Assembly (NCBI RefSeq): GCF_022045235.1
Contig: NW_027266297.1
Location: 70,060,001-70,124,000 of the forward strand
Origin: Haliotis cracherodii
Lineage: Eukaryota
Length of the DNA: 64,000 bases
Direction of reading: 5' to 3'
Part shown: positions 22,849 to 32,300 of the stretch, one piece after another
Layout of the letters: every line of letters begins with the position of its first letter
How positions within the stretch are numbered: position 1 is the first letter of the stretch
Notes under the pieces: generated by a model
Seen by the model: only the letters and a program-made list of their open reading frames with translations
Told to the model about the DNA's origin: nothing
The model's database searches: none
Position numbers and translations under genes: made by a program

Positions 22849-22880
22849 GCCACTATGCGGGGCCCGCGGGCTCTGCTGGC
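22849..22880 (+). promoter_or_regulatory. GC-rich stem-loop overlapping the SELENOP AUG (initiation stem-loop candidate)
   Basis: GCCA(22849-52)/TGGC(22877-80) and GCGGGGCC(22857-64)/GGCTCTGC(22869-76) pair around a CGCG loop, with the AUG (22855-57) in the bulge/stem. Confidence 0.55.
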
Positions 22881-25795
22881 TTTAGCGGTCCTCTGCGTCC
22901 TCGCCCCCTCTGTCCTGGGCGTCCGCTGCTCCCGACCCCCGTCGTGGTCGGTGGATGGCGTGCGCCCGATGGAACAGTTGCGCGGCAATGTGACGTTGGT
23001 GGCGCTGCTAAAGGCTAGCTGATCCTTCTGTAGAACCCAGGCCGCAAGGTGAGTGTTGCTGTGTTAAAGAAGCACTTCGAGTGGTAACAACACTACCAGT
23101 GATAAAATGTATCTTCATTTCTTGATGCCTGACGCCATCCCCGATTATCCAGAGCATTATATATCCATTCAGTTTTAATTCCCTGAACGCATTCTCTACC
23201 ATGGCTTTGTTTGGGAAGTGACGCAACCCCATCGCTGCTATTTTTAACCTGGCACAGAATGTTTGTTTGTTTGTTTGTTAAACGCCGCACTCAGCAATAT
23301 TCCAGCTATATGACGGCGGTCTGTAAATAATCGAGTCTGAGCCAGACAATCCTGTGACTGATGCCATGAGCATCGATCCACGCAACTGGGATACGATGAC
23401 ATGCATCAACCAAGTCAGCGAGCCTGACCACCCGATCCTGTTAGTCGCCCCTTACCACAAGCATAGTCGCCTTTTACGGAAAGCATGGGTTGTTGACATC
23501 CTATTCTTACCCGGATCTTCACGGGTATGGCACAGAATGTCTCTCGCTGCTCAGAGTAATTTGATTGGACGCTTTTGTTTGCGTCGTGATGTTCGAATCG
23601 ATCTGAGAACTGATGTTGGATCCAGGGTGTTTATCATCATAGAATGGCCTGAATCGTGATCGTTTGTGGAATCTTTTTTTTATGACTGTTAAACTACAAG
23701 TCTTCCTAGGATATATGCAATGAATAGAAATACAATAACCTCTCAGTTAATGTAAGAATATGACATATCCTTATTCACTCACTCACTCATTCCCCTTCAG
23801 TCTGGAAGTTCTCCGGGGTTTGTTTGCTGATCACAACATGCCCGACATCAACATGATCATCATCAACGCCTACGACAACGCCTCCCTCGCCCTGTACAAC
23901 GAATTCGCCAGTCTGGTCACCTTCCCCGTGTACCAGGACACCCCACAGCTTGGACTCTGGGAACGGGTCTACGGCGGCCACAAGGACGATTTCTTCATAT
24001 TTGACAGGTCGGGAACTTACTAACTTGGCAAACTGGCATTACAAATTAAAACCAGTAGTTCCTTCATGGAACGCTCATTCTTGCAGACTCGACAGCCTTC
24101 ATACCATGAGTGGATCCTTGGATCGACTCGAAAGTCGGGTAACTTCGTCTTGGGTTGTTGTGCCATTCATCAAGTGTTTATTATAGAAAGCGGGTCACAT
24201 TTGGGCTCGAGTCTAAAATAGAATATCAAACACTGTCTGAGATAATGGGTGCAGTATTCAGTAGCTAGACAACTATACGTCAGTTTTTATACAGTTTGAC
24301 AATTCTGTCCCCTGACCTTGAGGATTACCAGGGGAAGCCCCCTTCTGTTGTAGTAACTGGTCCCACTGACAATAACTTAATTCGGCATCGATTTTCCCCT
24401 TCTAGGTGTGGACAACAGACCTACCATATCCAGTTTCCGATGACCTACCTTCAGTACCACTACACCCAGAGTGCTCTCATTGCAACCTACCGGGACAGCC
24501 CTTGCTACTGTCGGCTCAACTCCCAGCACCATCAAGGTCATCAAGGTCAACGAGGTCAACGAGGTCAACGGGGTCGACAAGGTCACGGCCACGGCCACGG
24601 CCAGTCCTCCTCTCGTCATCATTCCAACTCCAATCATCAGATGCAGGGAGATGATCCTACAGTACAACGTGTGCCCTCCAGATCTCCCAGATGTCAAGAC
24701 CTTTTATGTAGGATTCTCAGAAGACTGAGACGTCAGAACAGGCTTAACCTGAACAGAAATAGCTATTCCCATCGCCACAGGCAGCACTGAGCCTGCCCCA
24801 ACTCCCCTTCCACGACCCTTGTACCTACTCATGATTGTCTGTGCTCCTCGCAGGAGTCGAGCCGCAGATGATCGTGTTACCAGCAGCTGACTGACCTCGG
24901 CGACAGTCGTCCTGTGGGCTGGAGGTGTTCCTGACATCGCCCATCTGCAGCTCTGAAGGACAGATGTCTCTGTCAGTCCTGCAGACATCAGTCACGCCAA
25001 TCCAAACCCTGACGTCTTGAGAACAGGTGACAGTGACGTCAGCAGAGTGATCTGTCACTGAAACGTTGTCAGTGACCGTCAGTCACAGAATCTAGGTGCA
25101 GCTGACCATCCTTTGGCGACTGTGAGTGCCGTTTTAGACATGACACTTGATCATGATCTTCAACGGTTGCCCGTCGCTGAAGCTGCCCTAGTGGCCCTGA
25201 GTGCTGACAGTGTCTCGAAGGGGGTCAGGACTGTCAGTGACCAAGGTCTGGATCTGCTTGACAGTGACCAGGTACAGGGTCCTCCTGACAGTGACAGCTT
25301 CAGACACCTGAGGGGTCATCCTCATCCTGACAGTGACCAACTGGGTTGGGGGGTACCTGACATTGACAACATAGCTCAGGACAAAATCCATCGTCTTGAC
25401 AATGACCTTCAGGTCTAGGGTCCCCTTGACAGTGACAAGGGCAGGTCGCTAGTGGTGCAGGTTCATTGTACCAGTGACAGGCACATGAGTCAGGTTCAGT
25501 TTCCTGACAGTGTCAGACTCAGCAACAGTCCTGAGACTGACCATCTGGACTGGCAGGTTCTTGACAATGACAAGGGCAGTCCAGTTCTTCTTCCATCTCC
25601 TGTTCCTGACCGTCTGGTTTAGAATCCTGACAGTGACAAGGTCACAACTCAGGTGTGTCCTCTCCATCCACCTGAGTGTGATCGGAGAGCGGCAGGTCCA
25701 CCTCCCGAGTCACGTGACAATGACCTCTCCGATGACTTCCCTCTCTGGGTGCTCCTTGACAGTGACCCATAGGAAGAGGCGCTGAATGACAGTAG
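22855..25795 (+). CDS. SELENOP: Selenoprotein P with 43 in-frame UGA (Sec) codons, ~596 aa
   Basis: Coding exons: 22855-23048 (signal peptide MRGPRALLALAVLCVLAPSVLG...VTLVALLKAS-U-SFC, UGA at 23020-23022 forming UxxC); 23801-24007 (...PVYQD...LWERVYGGHKDDFFIFDR); 24406-25795 (CGQQTYHIQFP...His/Gln/Gly-rich linker, then 42 in-frame TGA with no TAA/TAG until the TAG at 25793). Total 1791 nt = 597 codons. The motifs match the SelP N-terminal domain (VALLQASU, KDDFLIYDRCG). Two SECIS elements lie downstream. Confidence 0.96.
23263..23527 (-). mobile_element. SINE family A copy with 13-bp TSD
   Basis: Flanked by TGGCACAGAATGT (23250-62 and 23528-40). Confidence 0.9.
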
Positions 25796-25973
25796 TCTGT
25801 CACTAGCTTCCACTTGCCAACCCTATACTTCCTCCTCTAAATAATTGTTGATTCCAAACGATCCTATCCCTGAAATTGAAAGCAAATGTCACACATATAG
25901 AAGTTTGTTATCAACAGTTGTCCTGTATCTTTCTCCTCTACCACTATGAACTTCTTAGCTGTCCAGAAAGAGG

Positions 25974-26038
25974 CCAGTGTTAATGAAAGCATTAGGGATA
26001 AAACCTGGCGGTCTCCCAATGAAGGAAGTGAGAACTGG
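25974..26038 (+). promoter_or_regulatory. SECIS element 1 (type II) of SELENOP
   Basis: Helix I CCAGT(25974-78)/ACTGG(26034-38); core ATGAA(25983-87)/GGAA(26024-27); helix II CATT-A-GGGA/TCCCAATG; apical AAAA plus mini-stem ACC/GGT. Two mismatches sit next to the core. Confidence 0.72.
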
Positions 26039-26475
26039 GGTATCGCTGGACGTCTAAGGACAACATAAGGCAGAGATCATCCATGTTGCATTACCATCGA
26101 TCTTTGTATTCATCTTTCATCACAAGGTGGGGCACATTACAAAACACGTAAAACTTTCATCGGACGAGTGAATGGTAGTGAACATATATTTCTTGAAGTG
26201 TTTTTTTCTGCTTTGTCCTGTGCCTCTGTTTTGACATGATCTGATTTTTAATGTGTTTAAGTATTTGTGGGTGGTTTTATTCAAAGGATGTGAAATAAGT
26301 GTTGAACCTTACCCTTCAATGTCATCAAAAAATTGCATTCCAAATTCCAAATTCCAAAGATGACCAACTATCAAGTGTTGGTCTTAATCCTACTGGACCA
26401 TTTCAATGTTTTGTGTGAGGGACATATTTGGGTCAGGTTGCAACATTTGTGTTGTAGTATCGTCAACTAATGAAA

Positions 26476-26571
26476 CTGTAGCTATTGCCTCCCACCGAGA
26501 ATGAGAAGCCATTACAAAACTTGGAAAAGGGTACTGGTTTTGATCAACTGGTGAGAATGCAATAGATACAG
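26476..26571 (+). promoter_or_regulatory. SECIS element 2 (type II) of SELENOP
   Basis: Core ATGAG(26501-05)/TGAT(26541-44); helix II AAGCCATTAC/GTACTGGTTT (9 of 10 paired); apical AAAA plus mini-stem CTT-GGAA-AAG; helix I CACC/GGTG; basal extension CTGTA-G-CTATTGC/GCAATAG-A-TACAG. Confidence 0.9.
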
Positions 26572-26596
26572 ACTCGAGGTTTTGTGTGAGTTTATG

Positions 26597-26602
26597 AATA
26601 AA
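26597..26602 (+). terminator. Polyadenylation signal of SELENOP
   Basis: AATAAA 26 nt after SECIS2, followed by GU-rich GATGTTGTTT (26621-26630). Confidence 0.7.
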
Positions 26603-26644
26603 ACCATTTGTCCTTACTTTGATGTTGTTTATTCTGGTATTAGG

Positions 26645-26804
26645 GGCGGTCGGGTAGCCTAGTGGTTAAAGCGTTCGCTCGTCACGCCGAAGACCCGGGT
26701 TCGATTCCCAACATGGGTACAATGTGTGAAGCCCATTTCTGGCGTCCCCTGCCGTGAAATGGCTGGAATATTGCTAACAGTGGCATAAAACCAAACTCAC
26801 TCAC
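26645..26804 (+). mobile_element. tRNA-derived SINE family B with 15-bp TSD
   Basis: Head GGCGGTCGGGTAGCCTAGTGGTTAAAGCGTTCGCTCGTCACGCCGAAGACCCGGGTTCGATTCCC (A and B boxes, GTC anticodon-like), (ACTC)n tail, TSD TATTCTGGTATTAGG (26630-44 and 26805-19). Confidence 0.9.
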
Positions 26805-27665: not shown

Positions 27666-29334
27666 CAACATGGGCTTAGCCACCTTGCAGAAGTTGAAGG
27701 AAGACAAGTGTCAAAGTGTATCTGTTCTTGTGTGAAACTGATCATTTGTACTTATTGTTCCTAGGAGAATTATTTCCATGGAACAGATTTTACAAGGAAT
27801 ATTTTCATGAGACATTTACACTGGCAATATTTGTTATGGATGGAGCTTATTTGGTGTGGAACTGATCACCGTTGACACAAGCATTACAAAAATGTTGTAC
27901 TCGTGAAGGTAAAAAACTTTATTCTTTGGTCAACATCAGGCAAATAGACTGTTGATATACCTTTAAAATGTCAGGATATTATTTGGCACATAATAATATT
28001 AAAATGTTGTGTGCTGTTTAAGCACTTCAAATTAGTGAACATTTTGCATGTGGTACTTTTAAAAACTTACAATAGGATAACAATATTATTAATATACCAT
28101 ATACTGGCAGATTCACCAGAAACATGCTGAACGTCATGCAATCATCATTACAGCTGAACAAATATTATGCAGTAGTAAATAGCACCATCATGAGAAAAAT
28201 ATGTGTATTATAACAAAAGTTATGCGGAAGACTTACAAACTACACAAACTTTTCTAAATATTTTGAATAAACTTCAAATGGAACTGAGTAAGGTTCGATG
28301 TGCTCCAGTTCTACCTATACAGTTCACAATCAGACAAAAAACAGACAACAGGGTCAAAATCATCTAAAAGACCAAAAATTGGCACATAGAGTTAAGATAC
28401 TGGGCAGTGAATGGACGGAAAAAGCAAACATGGACATAGCACCAAACGTCGATTGTGACCAGAGTAACACTGCTGCTACTATCAACTGGACAGAATATAT
28501 ACCTAAGAGATATTACAGAGCAAGTATTTGAGATTGGTATCTCTTCATGAGAACAACAACTGTTGTGAACAATGGGCTTTTCATTAGAAAGGCTTAGTCT
28601 TTTATCTAATATTGTTTGCATAAAACATTTGGTGAGGCTTCAGCAGAGATATTTATAACATTTAACCATGGTAACAACAGAATATGGTCATATAAACTAC
28701 ATCGCGATCATCATTTGATTGACTGCAAGCACAAAACATAAAACTCAATGAGTCCCTCCACTGTAGAGAAGACGTAATGATAATACATACTTACGAACAA
28801 GATCCATGTCACATGGGAAACAACATGGCGCCCAAAGAAACAGTACATCATTGTATACTGAAATATCAGCTCTTGCAATAATATGTTCCCATTTTCCAAA
28901 TTCATCTGTATTGATCATTTCTTGGTTAAAAGATCTACACTGTAACTTATGCATCATGTTATGTATGAGTCATATGTTGAAGTTAAATGTTTCCCAGAAA
29001 AATACCATTTGGAATTCGAGATTGTCACCGACAGAAAAACATACTAAATGTTGAATTTTAACGCATGTGTCCAGGCAATTATGGAACAATTACAAGCTAA
29101 AGGCCAATCAGTAGTTATTTCATTATCTATTAAATCATTTAAAATAAACTGCTATCTGACATGTATATGACATTATTATGTCCTGCACCTGATTAGCATG
29201 GCCAAGAACTTTGCTGATTTTGACCTAATATTGCATATGACGTACATTGCAGTGGAATGAGCTGAGGCATCAAGACAATAGTACTCTGAAATTGTCTGGT
29301 GGCCCTGATTTTACACATTGATCTCTCGATCTTC

Positions 29335-32300
29335 TCACAACTCTTCATGTTCGTGTTCCTGGTCATCGTGGTGTGCTTGGTAGGGCAGATCCAATGGAGT
29401 TACCTCTTCCACTGCATCAAGTATAGCTTCTTTGATGTCGTCTACATCCACCCAGGGCCCCCAGGCATTAACCACATGTCCCTTGCCATCAACCAAGTAT
29501 TTCCAGAAGTTCCATGTGGGAGATTTGCCAGCCTCGGCTGAAATATCAAAAGTAACACATCACATAACACTGTCAGTGTTCAGAATAAAGGATGTTGGTC
29601 CATGTTCCTTGTCATAACTCCAATACTATAAAAATAAGAGATTTAGGAGCTCTCTAAACTTGCACTGTGCAATAGAAAACCAAAAACACCCCCATTAAAC
29701 TAGTGGTGGGATGATACACCGATGCCTTGGTGGATCACGATGTTTTACTTCTCCATACAAGTATCGATCACATCCGCACACTAAGTAAAAAGTATAGATT
29801 CTGGCCTTAAATGTTTGCTTTAATAACTGTTCCACTTAATACTAATCAGTAGTGCAAGTTAATAGTGAAAACATAACTATTTTCATTTGTTGTGCCATAC
29901 TTGACACTGCCAACTGTAAATCATCAGTGTACCAGGTATTTGGCCATCCTCTCTATGAAAAAGATGGCTTATGCACCACAGATAAGTGCACATGCAAGTA
30001 TCAGCTCATAAGTTGGGTATTGTGATACGTATCGGATCTCACAGTTGGTGTATCGTCCCAGCCCTACATTAAAACTGATTGTGGCAGATCATATTGAAGC
30101 TGACTGACACATTCAGTGAGTACCACTCTAATCATCATGGATTACAAAAAGAAGCACTGAAAACGTCTGCAAAACAAACTGTTCTGTTGACAAATCCTAG
30201 AAAAGATTGTGTAAATGCTGCAACACTAACTTAATCAATGTTGTCAGGAAAGATTTCTGTATTCATTAACAATAGATGAGGCTGTGTGGGCAGGATATTG
30301 AGAGATGTAATATTTCAAAAGTTGGTTTGTTGTTTAATGCCGCACTCAGCAATATTCCAGCTATATGACGGCGATCTGTAAATAATCGAGTCTGGACAGG
30401 ACAACCCAGTGATTAATATCATGAGCATCAATCCACGCAATTGGGATTGATGACAAGCATCAACTAAGTCAGCGGGCCTGACCACCCGATCCTGTTAGTC
30501 GCCTTTTACAACAAGCATAGTCACCTTTTACAGCAAGCATGGGTTGCTGAAGACCTATTCTACCCCGGAATCTTCACGGGTCAATATATATTTCAAAAGA
30601 ATATCAAGCAACAGGTAACACTTATTTTACCAATGAGCAGTTTCCATGCCTCTGGTACACTATCGCCGGTGACATCGATCTTGGCAAACATGGGGAAGTT
30701 CACCTTGTACTTCCGCTTCACAAACTGGTCGATGTCAGTGCTGCTCTGGAAGACCAAGAACACACATTGACGAAAACTGAGTATATTATTTCACGAAACA
30801 ACACTTGATGTCAGCTGACATACAGTATTACCAATTTTCACCTAAACATGATTATGGCTTTAATAGTTTCTATTTTTTGTTCATGTTTCACATGTGTTTG
30901 GACTTATGACTGAAAATCCCCACACTTTTCACCACCTGAAACCTGTATCTCATGACATGGAAAAACCTCCCTTTCAATGCAATGTTTTCTTTCTTCCTGT
31001 CACCCTGTGCAAACCTGTAGATCGATTTTTTTACTTGACATTTTGAACCAAAGAGCTACATGCAATGCAACGTTGTGATTGTGATATCTAACGAATGCTA
31101 ACAGGCCACAATTGTGATGCCCTGACAATGACTATTTAAGGACAGAAACTCGTTTCAACTATTTTACCTTCATCAAATCTCAATGAGAAAGTGGCTGCAT
31201 TGGCATATCTCAATTAATTTTATTTTTTGTTATAAAGACATCACTTGATCATTGTTGACGTTCAGAACTCCAAATAATCCCTTCCTAGCTCAGAACTTAT
31301 TACATTATTTCAGTCAGGATACCTATAATGCCTCAGAGCCTGCATCAGTGCTTCATGTTATTGTCAACTCATAATCAGAAGCCAATGAAAATACTAACCC
31401 CAGGCTCTTGAGAACCAAACTGGTTACAGGGAAAGGCAAGTACTGTGAACCGGTCAGTATGAACCAGCTCATTATGCAGTCTAACTAGGCCTTTGTAGTG
31501 CTGGTCAGTGTAGCCACACTCACTGGCCACATTCACCACCAGGGATACCTGCAATACACAAGTAACATGCACAATATGTTTTCAAACGGCATTTATAAGC
31601 AATGTTCACTAGTTTAGTTATAACTCTTGCATGCGCCAGAAGTGGAGACACCTGATTATCTCTTGGACCAGATACAGAGAGGCTAATTTATTATATGTCT
31701 TTATTTAATTTATATTTTCTGATAATGAGACTATTGATCAAAGAAACGTCAGTGGTAATAAATGATAATAAAGATGAGGTAAATAGAACAGCCTCAAGGC
31801 AAACTGATGCCTAATCAGGTAATAAATCATTTGATAAATGCCCTTTAATTTAGAGTCCGAATGATTCATTTTTTATCCTGAGGGGCGTATCCGGGCCCTT
31901 GGCTATCATTTGGGAGACAATATACTGACACACTGCATCTTGGTACACGAATCATTTAGTTTGTAGTTGTTGTGATGCTTTTCAAAGCATTCAGGAATAC
32001 AAGTCCCAATTTCTAAACAAGCTTTCCACTGATGGCGTAGTCTTTTTACTAAACAACTAGATATACACGTACATTATTTTTCAACTTATGACACAGCCCT
32101 ATGACATGAAGTAAGATCTGGGCTTACTGTAGAAATTTTAATGCACAGCCAACCATATAGCATGCTTACACCGTGAATTTAACCCACCTTTCCCTTATAT
32201 CTTTTCAATGGAACCAGATTTCCTCTCAGATCATACACGTCATACATGTAGAAATCTTTCGCCGGATCAAATTTCTTGTCGTCTGCAACGCTGCCCTGGT

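What the first reader, a model, noticed from the sequence alone, without database searches (positions are those of the whole stretch)
25945..26571. Two SECIS elements, each mounted on an unusually long basal helix
Seen: SECIS2 (core 26501/26541) is near-canonical type II and extends through CTGTA-G-CTATTGC/GCAATAG-A-TACAG. SECIS1 (core 25983/26024) has two purine mismatches next to the quartet. It is enclosed by an outer stem, TTCTTAG-CT-GTCCAG (25952-66) pairing with CTGGAC-GT-CTAAGGA (26046-60), plus TATG/CATA. Established: two SECIS elements are the SELENOP hallmark, and in vertebrates one is type I and one type II. Inference: both here look type II, and the extended stems may stabilise or present the SECIS for the heavy recoding load.
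Basis: partly seen in the sequence, partly recalled or inferred. Interest (0 to 1): 0.7.

Follow-up and report, generated by a model that had tools for sequence, protein, structure and literature searches.

The report
Twin SECIS hairpins of selenoprotein P
The tail of this animal's selenium-carrier gene holds the expected pair of likely selenocysteine-insertion hairpins, and the extra stems predicted beneath them likely just help them fold, since about half of the comparison hairpins from other selenium genes in the same genome have similar stems.

Summary
Both SECIS-like hairpins and both outer stems are at the stated coordinates, in the 3' UTR of a spliced, polyadenylated SELENOP gene with 43 in-frame UGAs. 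The outer stems beat shuffles (p about 0.0005 in a 20-nt window; weaker for SECIS2 in other windows). SECIS1 is odd (two purine mismatches) but very likely genuine: a strict descriptor found 14 sites in 592 kb, all beside selenoprotein-family genes, and 8 of 8 substitutions in close relatives fit the folds.

The interpretation mostly fails. Eight of 17 control SECIS from other selenoprotein genes in this genome also have extended stems, 3 stronger than SECIS1's, so the stems are not a heavy-recoding speciality. Two type II elements are already reported for fish SELENOP (PMC5133445). What survives: in silico, SECIS1's weak core folds only with its outer stem (0.94 to 0.10). Verdict: ordinary, a new member of a known kind. 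The scan noted a SECIS on an extended basal stem once before, in another genome. A side finding, a conserved hairpin beside four GPx SECIS elements, may deserve its own look.

The parts
22855..23048 (+). SELENOP first coding exon: hydrophobic N-terminus and first UGA (UxxC, TGA at 23020-22)
   Evidence: Pfam SelP_N hit; translation; spliced contig in run X8
23801..24007 (+). SELENOP second coding exon
   Evidence: SelP_N hit; splice joint to the last exon in X1, X4, X8
24406..25795 (+). SELENOP last coding exon, 42 in-frame UGAs, UAG stop at 25793-95; whole CDS 596 aa with 43 UGA
25945..25966 (+). 5' arm of SECIS1 outer stem (4 bp + 7+7 bp), predicted
   Evidence: MFE and pair probabilities 0.74-1.0 with span limits, 0.01 in the unrestricted whole-UTR fold
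25974..26038 (+). SECIS1 core: helix 1, AUGA/GA quartet, two purine mismatches, helix 2, AAA bulge, helix 3 (type II-like)
   Evidence: no Rfam hit
26046..26067 (+). 3' arm of SECIS1 outer stem, predicted; 26057 A>G in relatives keeps the pair (U-A to U-G)
26476..26491 (+). 5' arm of SECIS2 basal extension, predicted
26493..26553 (+). SECIS2 core: helix 1, AUGA/GA quartet, helix 2, AAAA, weak helix 3
   Evidence: Rfam SECIS_1 27.7 bits, E 7e-4, below gathering 35
26555..26571 (+). 3' arm of SECIS2 basal extension, predicted
26597..26616 (+). AAUAAA signal (26597-602) and poly(A) site at 26616
   Evidence: poly(A) loose ends at 26616 in runs X6 and X8

Best explanation
These are the two likely SECIS hairpins in the 3' UTR of a 43-UGA selenoprotein P mRNA, each predicted to continue below helix 1 into an extra stem that likely acts as an ordinary folding clamp, a feature shared with many other SECIS elements of this genome. 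Shown: gene, splicing, poly(A) site, motifs, complementarity above chance, and similar stems in 8 of 17 control SECIS. Established for the family: the AUGA/GA kink-turn binds SBP2, which recruits eEFSec with Sec-tRNA so that UGA is read as Sec. Inferred: the outer stems close off each SECIS as a local domain and keep its strands from mispairing. This matters most for SECIS1, whose helix 2 base is weakened by two purine mismatches. They are not a device for the large number of UGAs.
For: SelP_N hits on three exons, single locus in G000. A contig in run X8 spans 24632-26616, covering the UGA-rich CDS, both elements and the poly(A) end. Strict descriptor: 14 distinct sites in 592 kb, SECIS1 plus 13 already-picked control sites, no other hit (thresholds were set so that SECIS1 passes, and SECIS2 just fails them). 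8 of 8 substitutions in relatives are unpaired or pair-keeping, expected share 0.52 each, p about 0.005. Extension beyond Rfam bounds: 8 of 17 controls under the 5% background line, controls vs background p=2e-5; DIO_f -22.5, TrxR_b -20.4, DIO_c -19.5 exceed SECIS1 -17.4. A deiodinase SECIS (L038) also has two mismatches beside the quartet and a strong basal stem. Removing or shuffling the arms drops SECIS1 helix 2 probability from 0.94 to 0.10-0.13. Helix 1 is described as variable, and swapping it had very little effect in human reporters (PMC2761289); its length depends on local UTR structure (PMC2647825).
Against: All folding is nearest-neighbour prediction without kink-turn energy or SBP2. 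The unrestricted fold of the whole UTR breaks SECIS1 by pairing its 3' strand with 25798-25833 (outer stem probability 0.01). No covariation in the outer stems: relatives are about 97-98% identical and only 1 of 8 changes lies in a distal stem; no two-sided change. Both SELENOP elements depend on their arms in silico (2 of 2) against 3 of 17 controls, which leans toward something particular to SELENOP. For SECIS2 that dependence is window-dependent (0.19 or 0.63) and largely gone in relatives' variants (0.73-0.99). Core strength and extension strength are not correlated (Spearman -0.21, p 0.40, n=19). Controls were picked by my descriptor and by eye; 11 of 17 are backed by Rfam at E<=10; the deiodinases are paralogues and not independent.
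Confidence: 0.68

Rival explanations
1. The outer stems are SELENOP-specific parts that present SECIS1 (or both elements) for processive recoding of the 42 distal UGAs.
For: Both SELENOP elements rank high for extension energy (4th and 6th of 19) and both have weak cores that need the arms in silico, against 3 of 17 controls. Mouse SECIS1 is needed for distal UGAs (PMC5727441; PMC5133445).
Against: Equal or stronger stems in deiodinase and TrxR family genes. SECIS2 dependence fades in relatives. Helix 1 swap has little effect in human reporters. From recall only (paper not held): the two oyster SELENOP SECIS were reported not to differ functionally in vitro.
Confidence: 0.14
2. The outer complementarity is incidental: the minimal SECIS cores work alone once SBP2 binds, and the extra stems are neutral local structure.
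For: 9 of 17 controls lack a strong extension. No compensatory pair seen. SECIS2 significance depends on the window.
Against: Extensions are enriched at SECIS sites over genomic background (p=2e-5). The one change in SECIS1's outer stem keeps pairing. SECIS1 does not fold without them in silico.
Confidence: 0.12
3. SECIS1 is a decayed or inactive element and SECIS2 does all the recoding.
For: No Rfam SECIS_1 match at E<=10; two purine mismatches at the position SECISearch3 penalises (PMC3753652); a competing long-range fold.
Against: Rfam also missed 6 of 17 controls and SECIS2. Only 2 substitutions in 123 nt across four relative runs, both structure-compatible, core motifs unchanged. Passes a descriptor with no off-target hit in 592 kb. 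A deiodinase SECIS has the same two-mismatch anatomy.
Confidence: 0.06

Closest known systems
Vertebrate SELENOP SECIS1/SECIS2 pair (Wu et al. 2016, PMC5133445; Mariotti et al. 2017, PMC5727441)
   Same: Two SECIS in the last exon's 3' UTR of a multi-Sec SELENOP, the second close to the poly(A) site; both type 2 as reported for fishes.
   Different: 43 UGAs here; cores 518 nt apart; SECIS1 has two purine mismatches beside the quartet. Whether the two elements divide the work as in mouse is untested. Orthology of SECIS1/2 to the vertebrate pair was not tested.
Mollusc multi-Sec SELENOP (Baclaocos et al. 2019, J Mol Biol 431:4381; seen only as a reference-list entry, content recalled)
   Same: Very UGA-rich SELENOP with, from recall, two SECIS elements.
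   Different: Could not be compared: the paper is not held. It or its supplements may already show these elements and stems. No call named the organism of this window.
Eukaryotic SECIS, Rfam SECIS_1 RF00031; type II consensus of SECISaln (PMC2647825)
   Same: UGAN/KGAW quartet, A before UGA, A-run 10-12 nt above the core, helix 1, helix 3.
   Different: The model has a 5-bp helix 1; here pairing runs on for 12-18 more pairs. SECIS1 lacks the usual G-Y pair after the quartet. Neither element reaches the gathering score, nor did any of the 17 controls (best 34.4 bits).
Other SECIS elements of the same genome (deiodinases L037, L038, L041, L044; SELENOT L002; TrxR-family L068; SELENOF L054; Rdx-family L065)
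   Same: Extended basal stems of equal or greater predicted strength; L038 also has two mismatches beside the quartet.
   Different: These families carry one Sec (one in-frame TGA seen in the deiodinase matches and in SELENOT; taken from family knowledge for SELENOF, Rdx and TrxR).

Membership tests
SELENOP (multi-Sec) | SelP_N thioredoxin-like N-terminal domain with UxxC | tested here: met
   PF04592 hits on three exons over the cut-off; first TGA in a UxxC context
SELENOP (multi-Sec) | Many in-frame UGAs in a C-terminal domain | tested here: met
   43 UGA in a 596-aa spliced frame, 42 in the last exon
SELENOP (multi-Sec) | Two SECIS in the 3' UTR of the same transcript | tested here: met
   One X8 contig spans 24632-26616 and ends in poly(A); the run is RNA by guess but shows splice joints
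Eukaryotic SECIS (element 1) | A-UGAN / KGAW quartet | tested here: met
   AUGAA / GGAA in register; consensus from PMC2647825
Eukaryotic SECIS (element 1) | Unpaired AAR about 11-12 nt above the core | tested here: met
   AAA after 12 nt; controls mostly 11-12
Eukaryotic SECIS (element 1) | Well-paired helix 2 | tested here: inconclusive
   8 standard pairs, one bulge, two purine mismatches next to the quartet; 1 of 17 controls shares the two-mismatch pattern
Eukaryotic SECIS (element 1) | Helix 1 closing the internal loop | tested here: met
   5 bp, probability 0.66-0.97 with span limits, 0.01 in the unrestricted whole-UTR fold
Eukaryotic SECIS (element 1) | Match to Rfam SECIS_1 | tested here: inconclusive
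   No match at E<=10, but 6 of 17 controls and SECIS2 were also missed; SECISearch3 not available
Eukaryotic SECIS (element 2) | Quartet, A-run, helix 2 and helix 1; Rfam match | tested here: met
   27.7 bits over the full model, E 7e-4, below gathering; helices at probability >0.9 except one G-U
Type II SECIS | Helix 3 above the A-bulge | tested here: inconclusive
   SECIS1 0.66-0.94; SECIS2 0.48-0.50
Eukaryotic SECIS (both) | SBP2 binding and UGA-to-Sec recoding | not testable with these tools
   Needs binding and reporter assays
   8 of 17 control SECIS have them; 3 are stronger than SECIS1's and 4 stronger than SECIS2's
Conserved RNA structure (outer stems) | Two-sided covariation across orthologues | tested here: inconclusive
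   Only near-identical relatives were reachable; one one-sided change in the distal stems, none breaking; no distant orthologue found

The most novel reading that the evidence does not exclude
SECIS elements in this lineage carry a second structural tier that minimal models ignore: either an enclosing basal stem (both SELENOP elements and about half of the others) or, in four GPx genes, an adjacent hairpin with a conserved loop. In SELENOP, the mismatch-weakened SECIS1 exists only while its outer stem holds against a competing upstream pairing, so the stem gates recoding of the selenium-rich tail and could be a regulatory switch.
Probability: 0.15. Interest if true: 0.6.

Novelty: new member of a known kind. 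Interest (0 to 1): 0.25.

Why it matters
As it stands it is a correct annotation of a known arrangement, with one practical lesson: a reporter built from a minimal SECIS1 would likely misfold and under-report it, and Rfam misses it. If basal extensions prove functional across SECIS elements, they would help explain why SECIS of similar core differ so much in strength. If the SECIS1 stem gates folding, it would bear on the open question of how dozens of UGAs are read processively.

Tried and rejected
Rfam scan of 6 kb found neither element; narrow scans found SECIS2 only. A home-made covariance model from 7 control SECIS (R1) was overfitted: it found only its 7 training sequences, none of the 10 held-out controls and neither SELENOP element, so it was discarded. 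Protein search with the start of the last exon, longer proteins only, found nothing. The metagenome scan gave one bacterial-looking locus, no animal orthologue. No RNA holder was listed on record; runs are RNA by guess. Compensation (weak core, strong stem) is not a general rule across 19 elements. The SELENOP hairpin 3' of SECIS1 (loop near 26084-94) is not the GPx hairpin: model R2 does not match the window, and 26099 G>A in all four relatives falls in its outer arm. Rows dropped from the control set: L004 and L040 (near-identical copies of L003 and L039) and L042, L043, L050, L063, L064, L066 (no convincing SECIS). The 20-nt background mean is spoiled by a few no-duplex values; percentiles and ranks were used. 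Papers not held: Baclaocos 2019, PMC7409585, PMC6302164, PMC1369790; the supplement of PMC2761289 could not be searched. A genome-wide search for the GPx hairpin was not available, so its spread beyond the fetched loci is open.

Full report
1. Observation. SECIS1 has AUGA at 25983, two purine mismatches (A-A, G-A) next to the quartet, 8 standard pairs in helix 2 with a bulged A at 25994, AAA 12 nt above the core, a 3-bp helix 3 and a 5-bp helix 1. A 7x7-nt loop separates helix 1 from the outer stem 25952-66/26046-60, so this is not one continuous helix. SECIS2 has AUGA at 26501, UGAU at 26541, and a 12-pair extension 26476-88/26559-71.

2. Context. Pfam SelP_N matches three exons upstream and nowhere else in G000. 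The spliced frame is 596 aa with 43 UGAs, 42 in the last exon, ending at UAG 25793-95. Contigs of runs X1, X4 and X8 show the last splice joint; one X8 contig runs from 24632 to a poly(A) end at 26616, covering both elements; X6 also ends in poly(A) there. These runs are RNA by guess. No call named the organism; a mollusc is my inference from the UGA-rich SELENOP.

3. Are they SECIS elements? SECIS2 matches Rfam SECIS_1 over the full model at 27.7 bits, below the gathering score of 35. SECIS1 has no match. To judge that miss I gathered SECIS candidates beside other selenoprotein-family genes of G000 and kept 17 distinct ones; dropped rows are listed under Tried and rejected. Rfam found 11 of the 17 at 19-34 bits, none at the gathering score, and missed 6 of them as well as both SELENOP elements in that call. 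So the miss says little. A strict descriptor, with thresholds set so that SECIS1 passes, found 14 distinct sites in 592 kb: SECIS1 and 13 control sites (two of them near-identical copies), nothing else; SECIS2 just failed it. In four runs of relatives about 97-98% identical, 8 substitutions fall in the two elements. All 8 are at unpaired places or keep the pair, where 0.52 each would be expected (p about 0.005). The AUGA, GA and A-run motifs are unchanged. I take both as genuine, SECIS1 with slightly less certainty.

4. Are the stems above chance? For the 20 nt beyond the Rfam model bounds, the duplex is -17.4 kcal/mol for SECIS1 and -16.0 for SECIS2, p=0.0005 against 2000 dinucleotide shuffles and within the top 0.5% of 3000 genomic windows. 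With 35 nt the p-values are 0.004 and 0.046. With a 14-nt cut that splits its stem, SECIS2 is not significant. So yes for SECIS1, and yes but window-dependent for SECIS2.

5. Are they unusual for a SECIS? No. 8 of 17 controls fall under the 5% background line at either window size (controls vs background p=2e-5 and 6e-6). Three exceed SECIS1 and four exceed SECIS2 at 20 nt. These include four deiodinase genes with one in-frame TGA in their Pfam match and SELENOT. One deiodinase SECIS (L038) even shares the two mismatches beside the quartet. The deiodinases are paralogues, so the count overstates independence, but SELENOT, SELENOF, an Rdx-family and a TrxR-family gene show it too. This is the main result against the heavy-load reading.

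6. What do the stems likely do? In silico, forbidding or shuffling the arms drops helix 2 probability from 0.94 to 0.10-0.13 for SECIS1 and from 0.96 to 0.19-0.29 for SECIS2; 3 of 17 controls behave alike. Without the arms, SECIS1's strands pair among themselves in other registers. For SECIS2 the effect is smaller in another window (0.63) and mostly gone in relatives' versions (0.73-0.99); for SECIS1 it persists (0.10-0.39). Core and extension strengths are not correlated across 19 elements. An unrestricted fold of the whole UTR breaks SECIS1 by pairing its 3' strand with 25798-25833, while span-limited folds and folds ending at 26200 mostly keep it (0.49-1.0). None of this includes kink-turn energy or SBP2. 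The best reading is a generic folding clamp, important for SECIS1. This step is inferred.

7. Literature. PMC5133445 (passages and section 4.4): mammalian SECIS2 is form one and SECIS1 form two, but both are type 2 in fishes. PMC2647825 (part 1 of 2, covering the main text): 224 of 286 SECIS are type II, and helix 1 length depends on local UTR structure. PMC2761289 (abstract, two of three parts of Results): helix 1 is variable, and swapping it had very little effect; its supplement could not be searched. PMC5727441 (passages): distinct roles of mouse SECIS1 and SECIS2. PMC3753652 (passages): mismatches next to the core lower the grade. Passages of PMC8704476, PMC9337670, PMC3316567, PMC3885406, PMC8310308, PMC8557442, PMC12693785 and PMC8659212 added nothing on basal stems. 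Searches listed no paper devoted to extended SECIS basal helices, but the library is partial and the key mollusc paper (Baclaocos 2019) is not held, so prior description cannot be excluded.

8. Earlier notes of this scan. e1-7769898 records a SECIS on an extended basal stem in a retrotransposon of another genome, in line with the trait being generic; I did not check it. e1-10141266 notes UGA-C bias in a mussel SELENOP; here 34 of 42 last-exon UGAs are followed by C.

9. Side finding. Four GPx SECIS elements (L046-L049) lack an enclosing stem and are followed within about 30 nt by a hairpin with different stems but a shared loop, UU-N(1-3)-U-R-CAUUC. Of 45 loop matches in 884 kb of overlapping loci, only these four distinct sites close a stem of 5 or more pairs (the loop pattern was derived from them). 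Three of 7 pairs change on both sides (four sequences). It is absent from SELENOP. One search listed no description of it.

10. Verdict. Real, correctly described, and mostly ordinary: a new member of the known two-SECIS SELENOP arrangement. The basal stems are above chance but common among this genome's SECIS elements. Interest 0.25.

Noticed in passing
L046:7284-7325 (-), L047:2926-2967 (-), L048:8301-8342 (-), L049:2592-2633 (+): Four GPx-family SECIS elements on three contigs are each followed by a hairpin whose stems differ (3 of 7 pairs change on both sides) but whose loop is conserved (UU-N1-3-U-R-CAUUC). These four lack an enclosing basal stem. Possibly an undescribed SECIS-adjacent element.
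   Followed up: partly
L038 (deiodinase, G000:C1 near 36635260, - strand): SECIS with two mismatches beside the quartet and a strong basal stem, the same anatomy as SELENOP SECIS1, in a gene with one in-frame TGA.
   Followed up: partly
window 24788-25789: 34 of 42 last-exon UGAs are followed by C. One UGA (25103-05) reads UGU (Cys) in runs X8 and X15.
   Followed up: partly
window 25841-25921: Predicted long hairpin between the stop codon and SECIS1 with a 12-bp base; the three substitutions seen in relatives (25882, 25896, 25900) lie in its upper half.
   Followed up: no
window 25798-25833 with 26023-26062: A competing long-range pairing that would sequester SECIS1's 3' core strand appears in the unrestricted whole-UTR fold.
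   Followed up: partly
G000:C1 28.6 Mb, 36.6 Mb and 72.9 Mb (L013-L021): Nine deiodinase-family loci, six clustered within about 80 kb; two look truncated or frameshifted (L019, L020), and no convincing SECIS was found downstream of those two.
   Followed up: no
window 29311-31550 (- strand): Neighbouring GPx7/8-like gene with Cys at the active-site motif and a C-terminal HEEL, convergent with SELENOP; no SECIS-descriptor hit beside it.
   Followed up: partly
window 26642-26790: tRNA-like, very high-copy repeat (likely a SINE) starting just after the poly(A) site.
   Followed up: no
L071:75-923: A bacterial-looking metagenome ORF with an in-frame TGA in a UxxC motif and 35% identity to SELENOP exon 2.
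   Followed up: no
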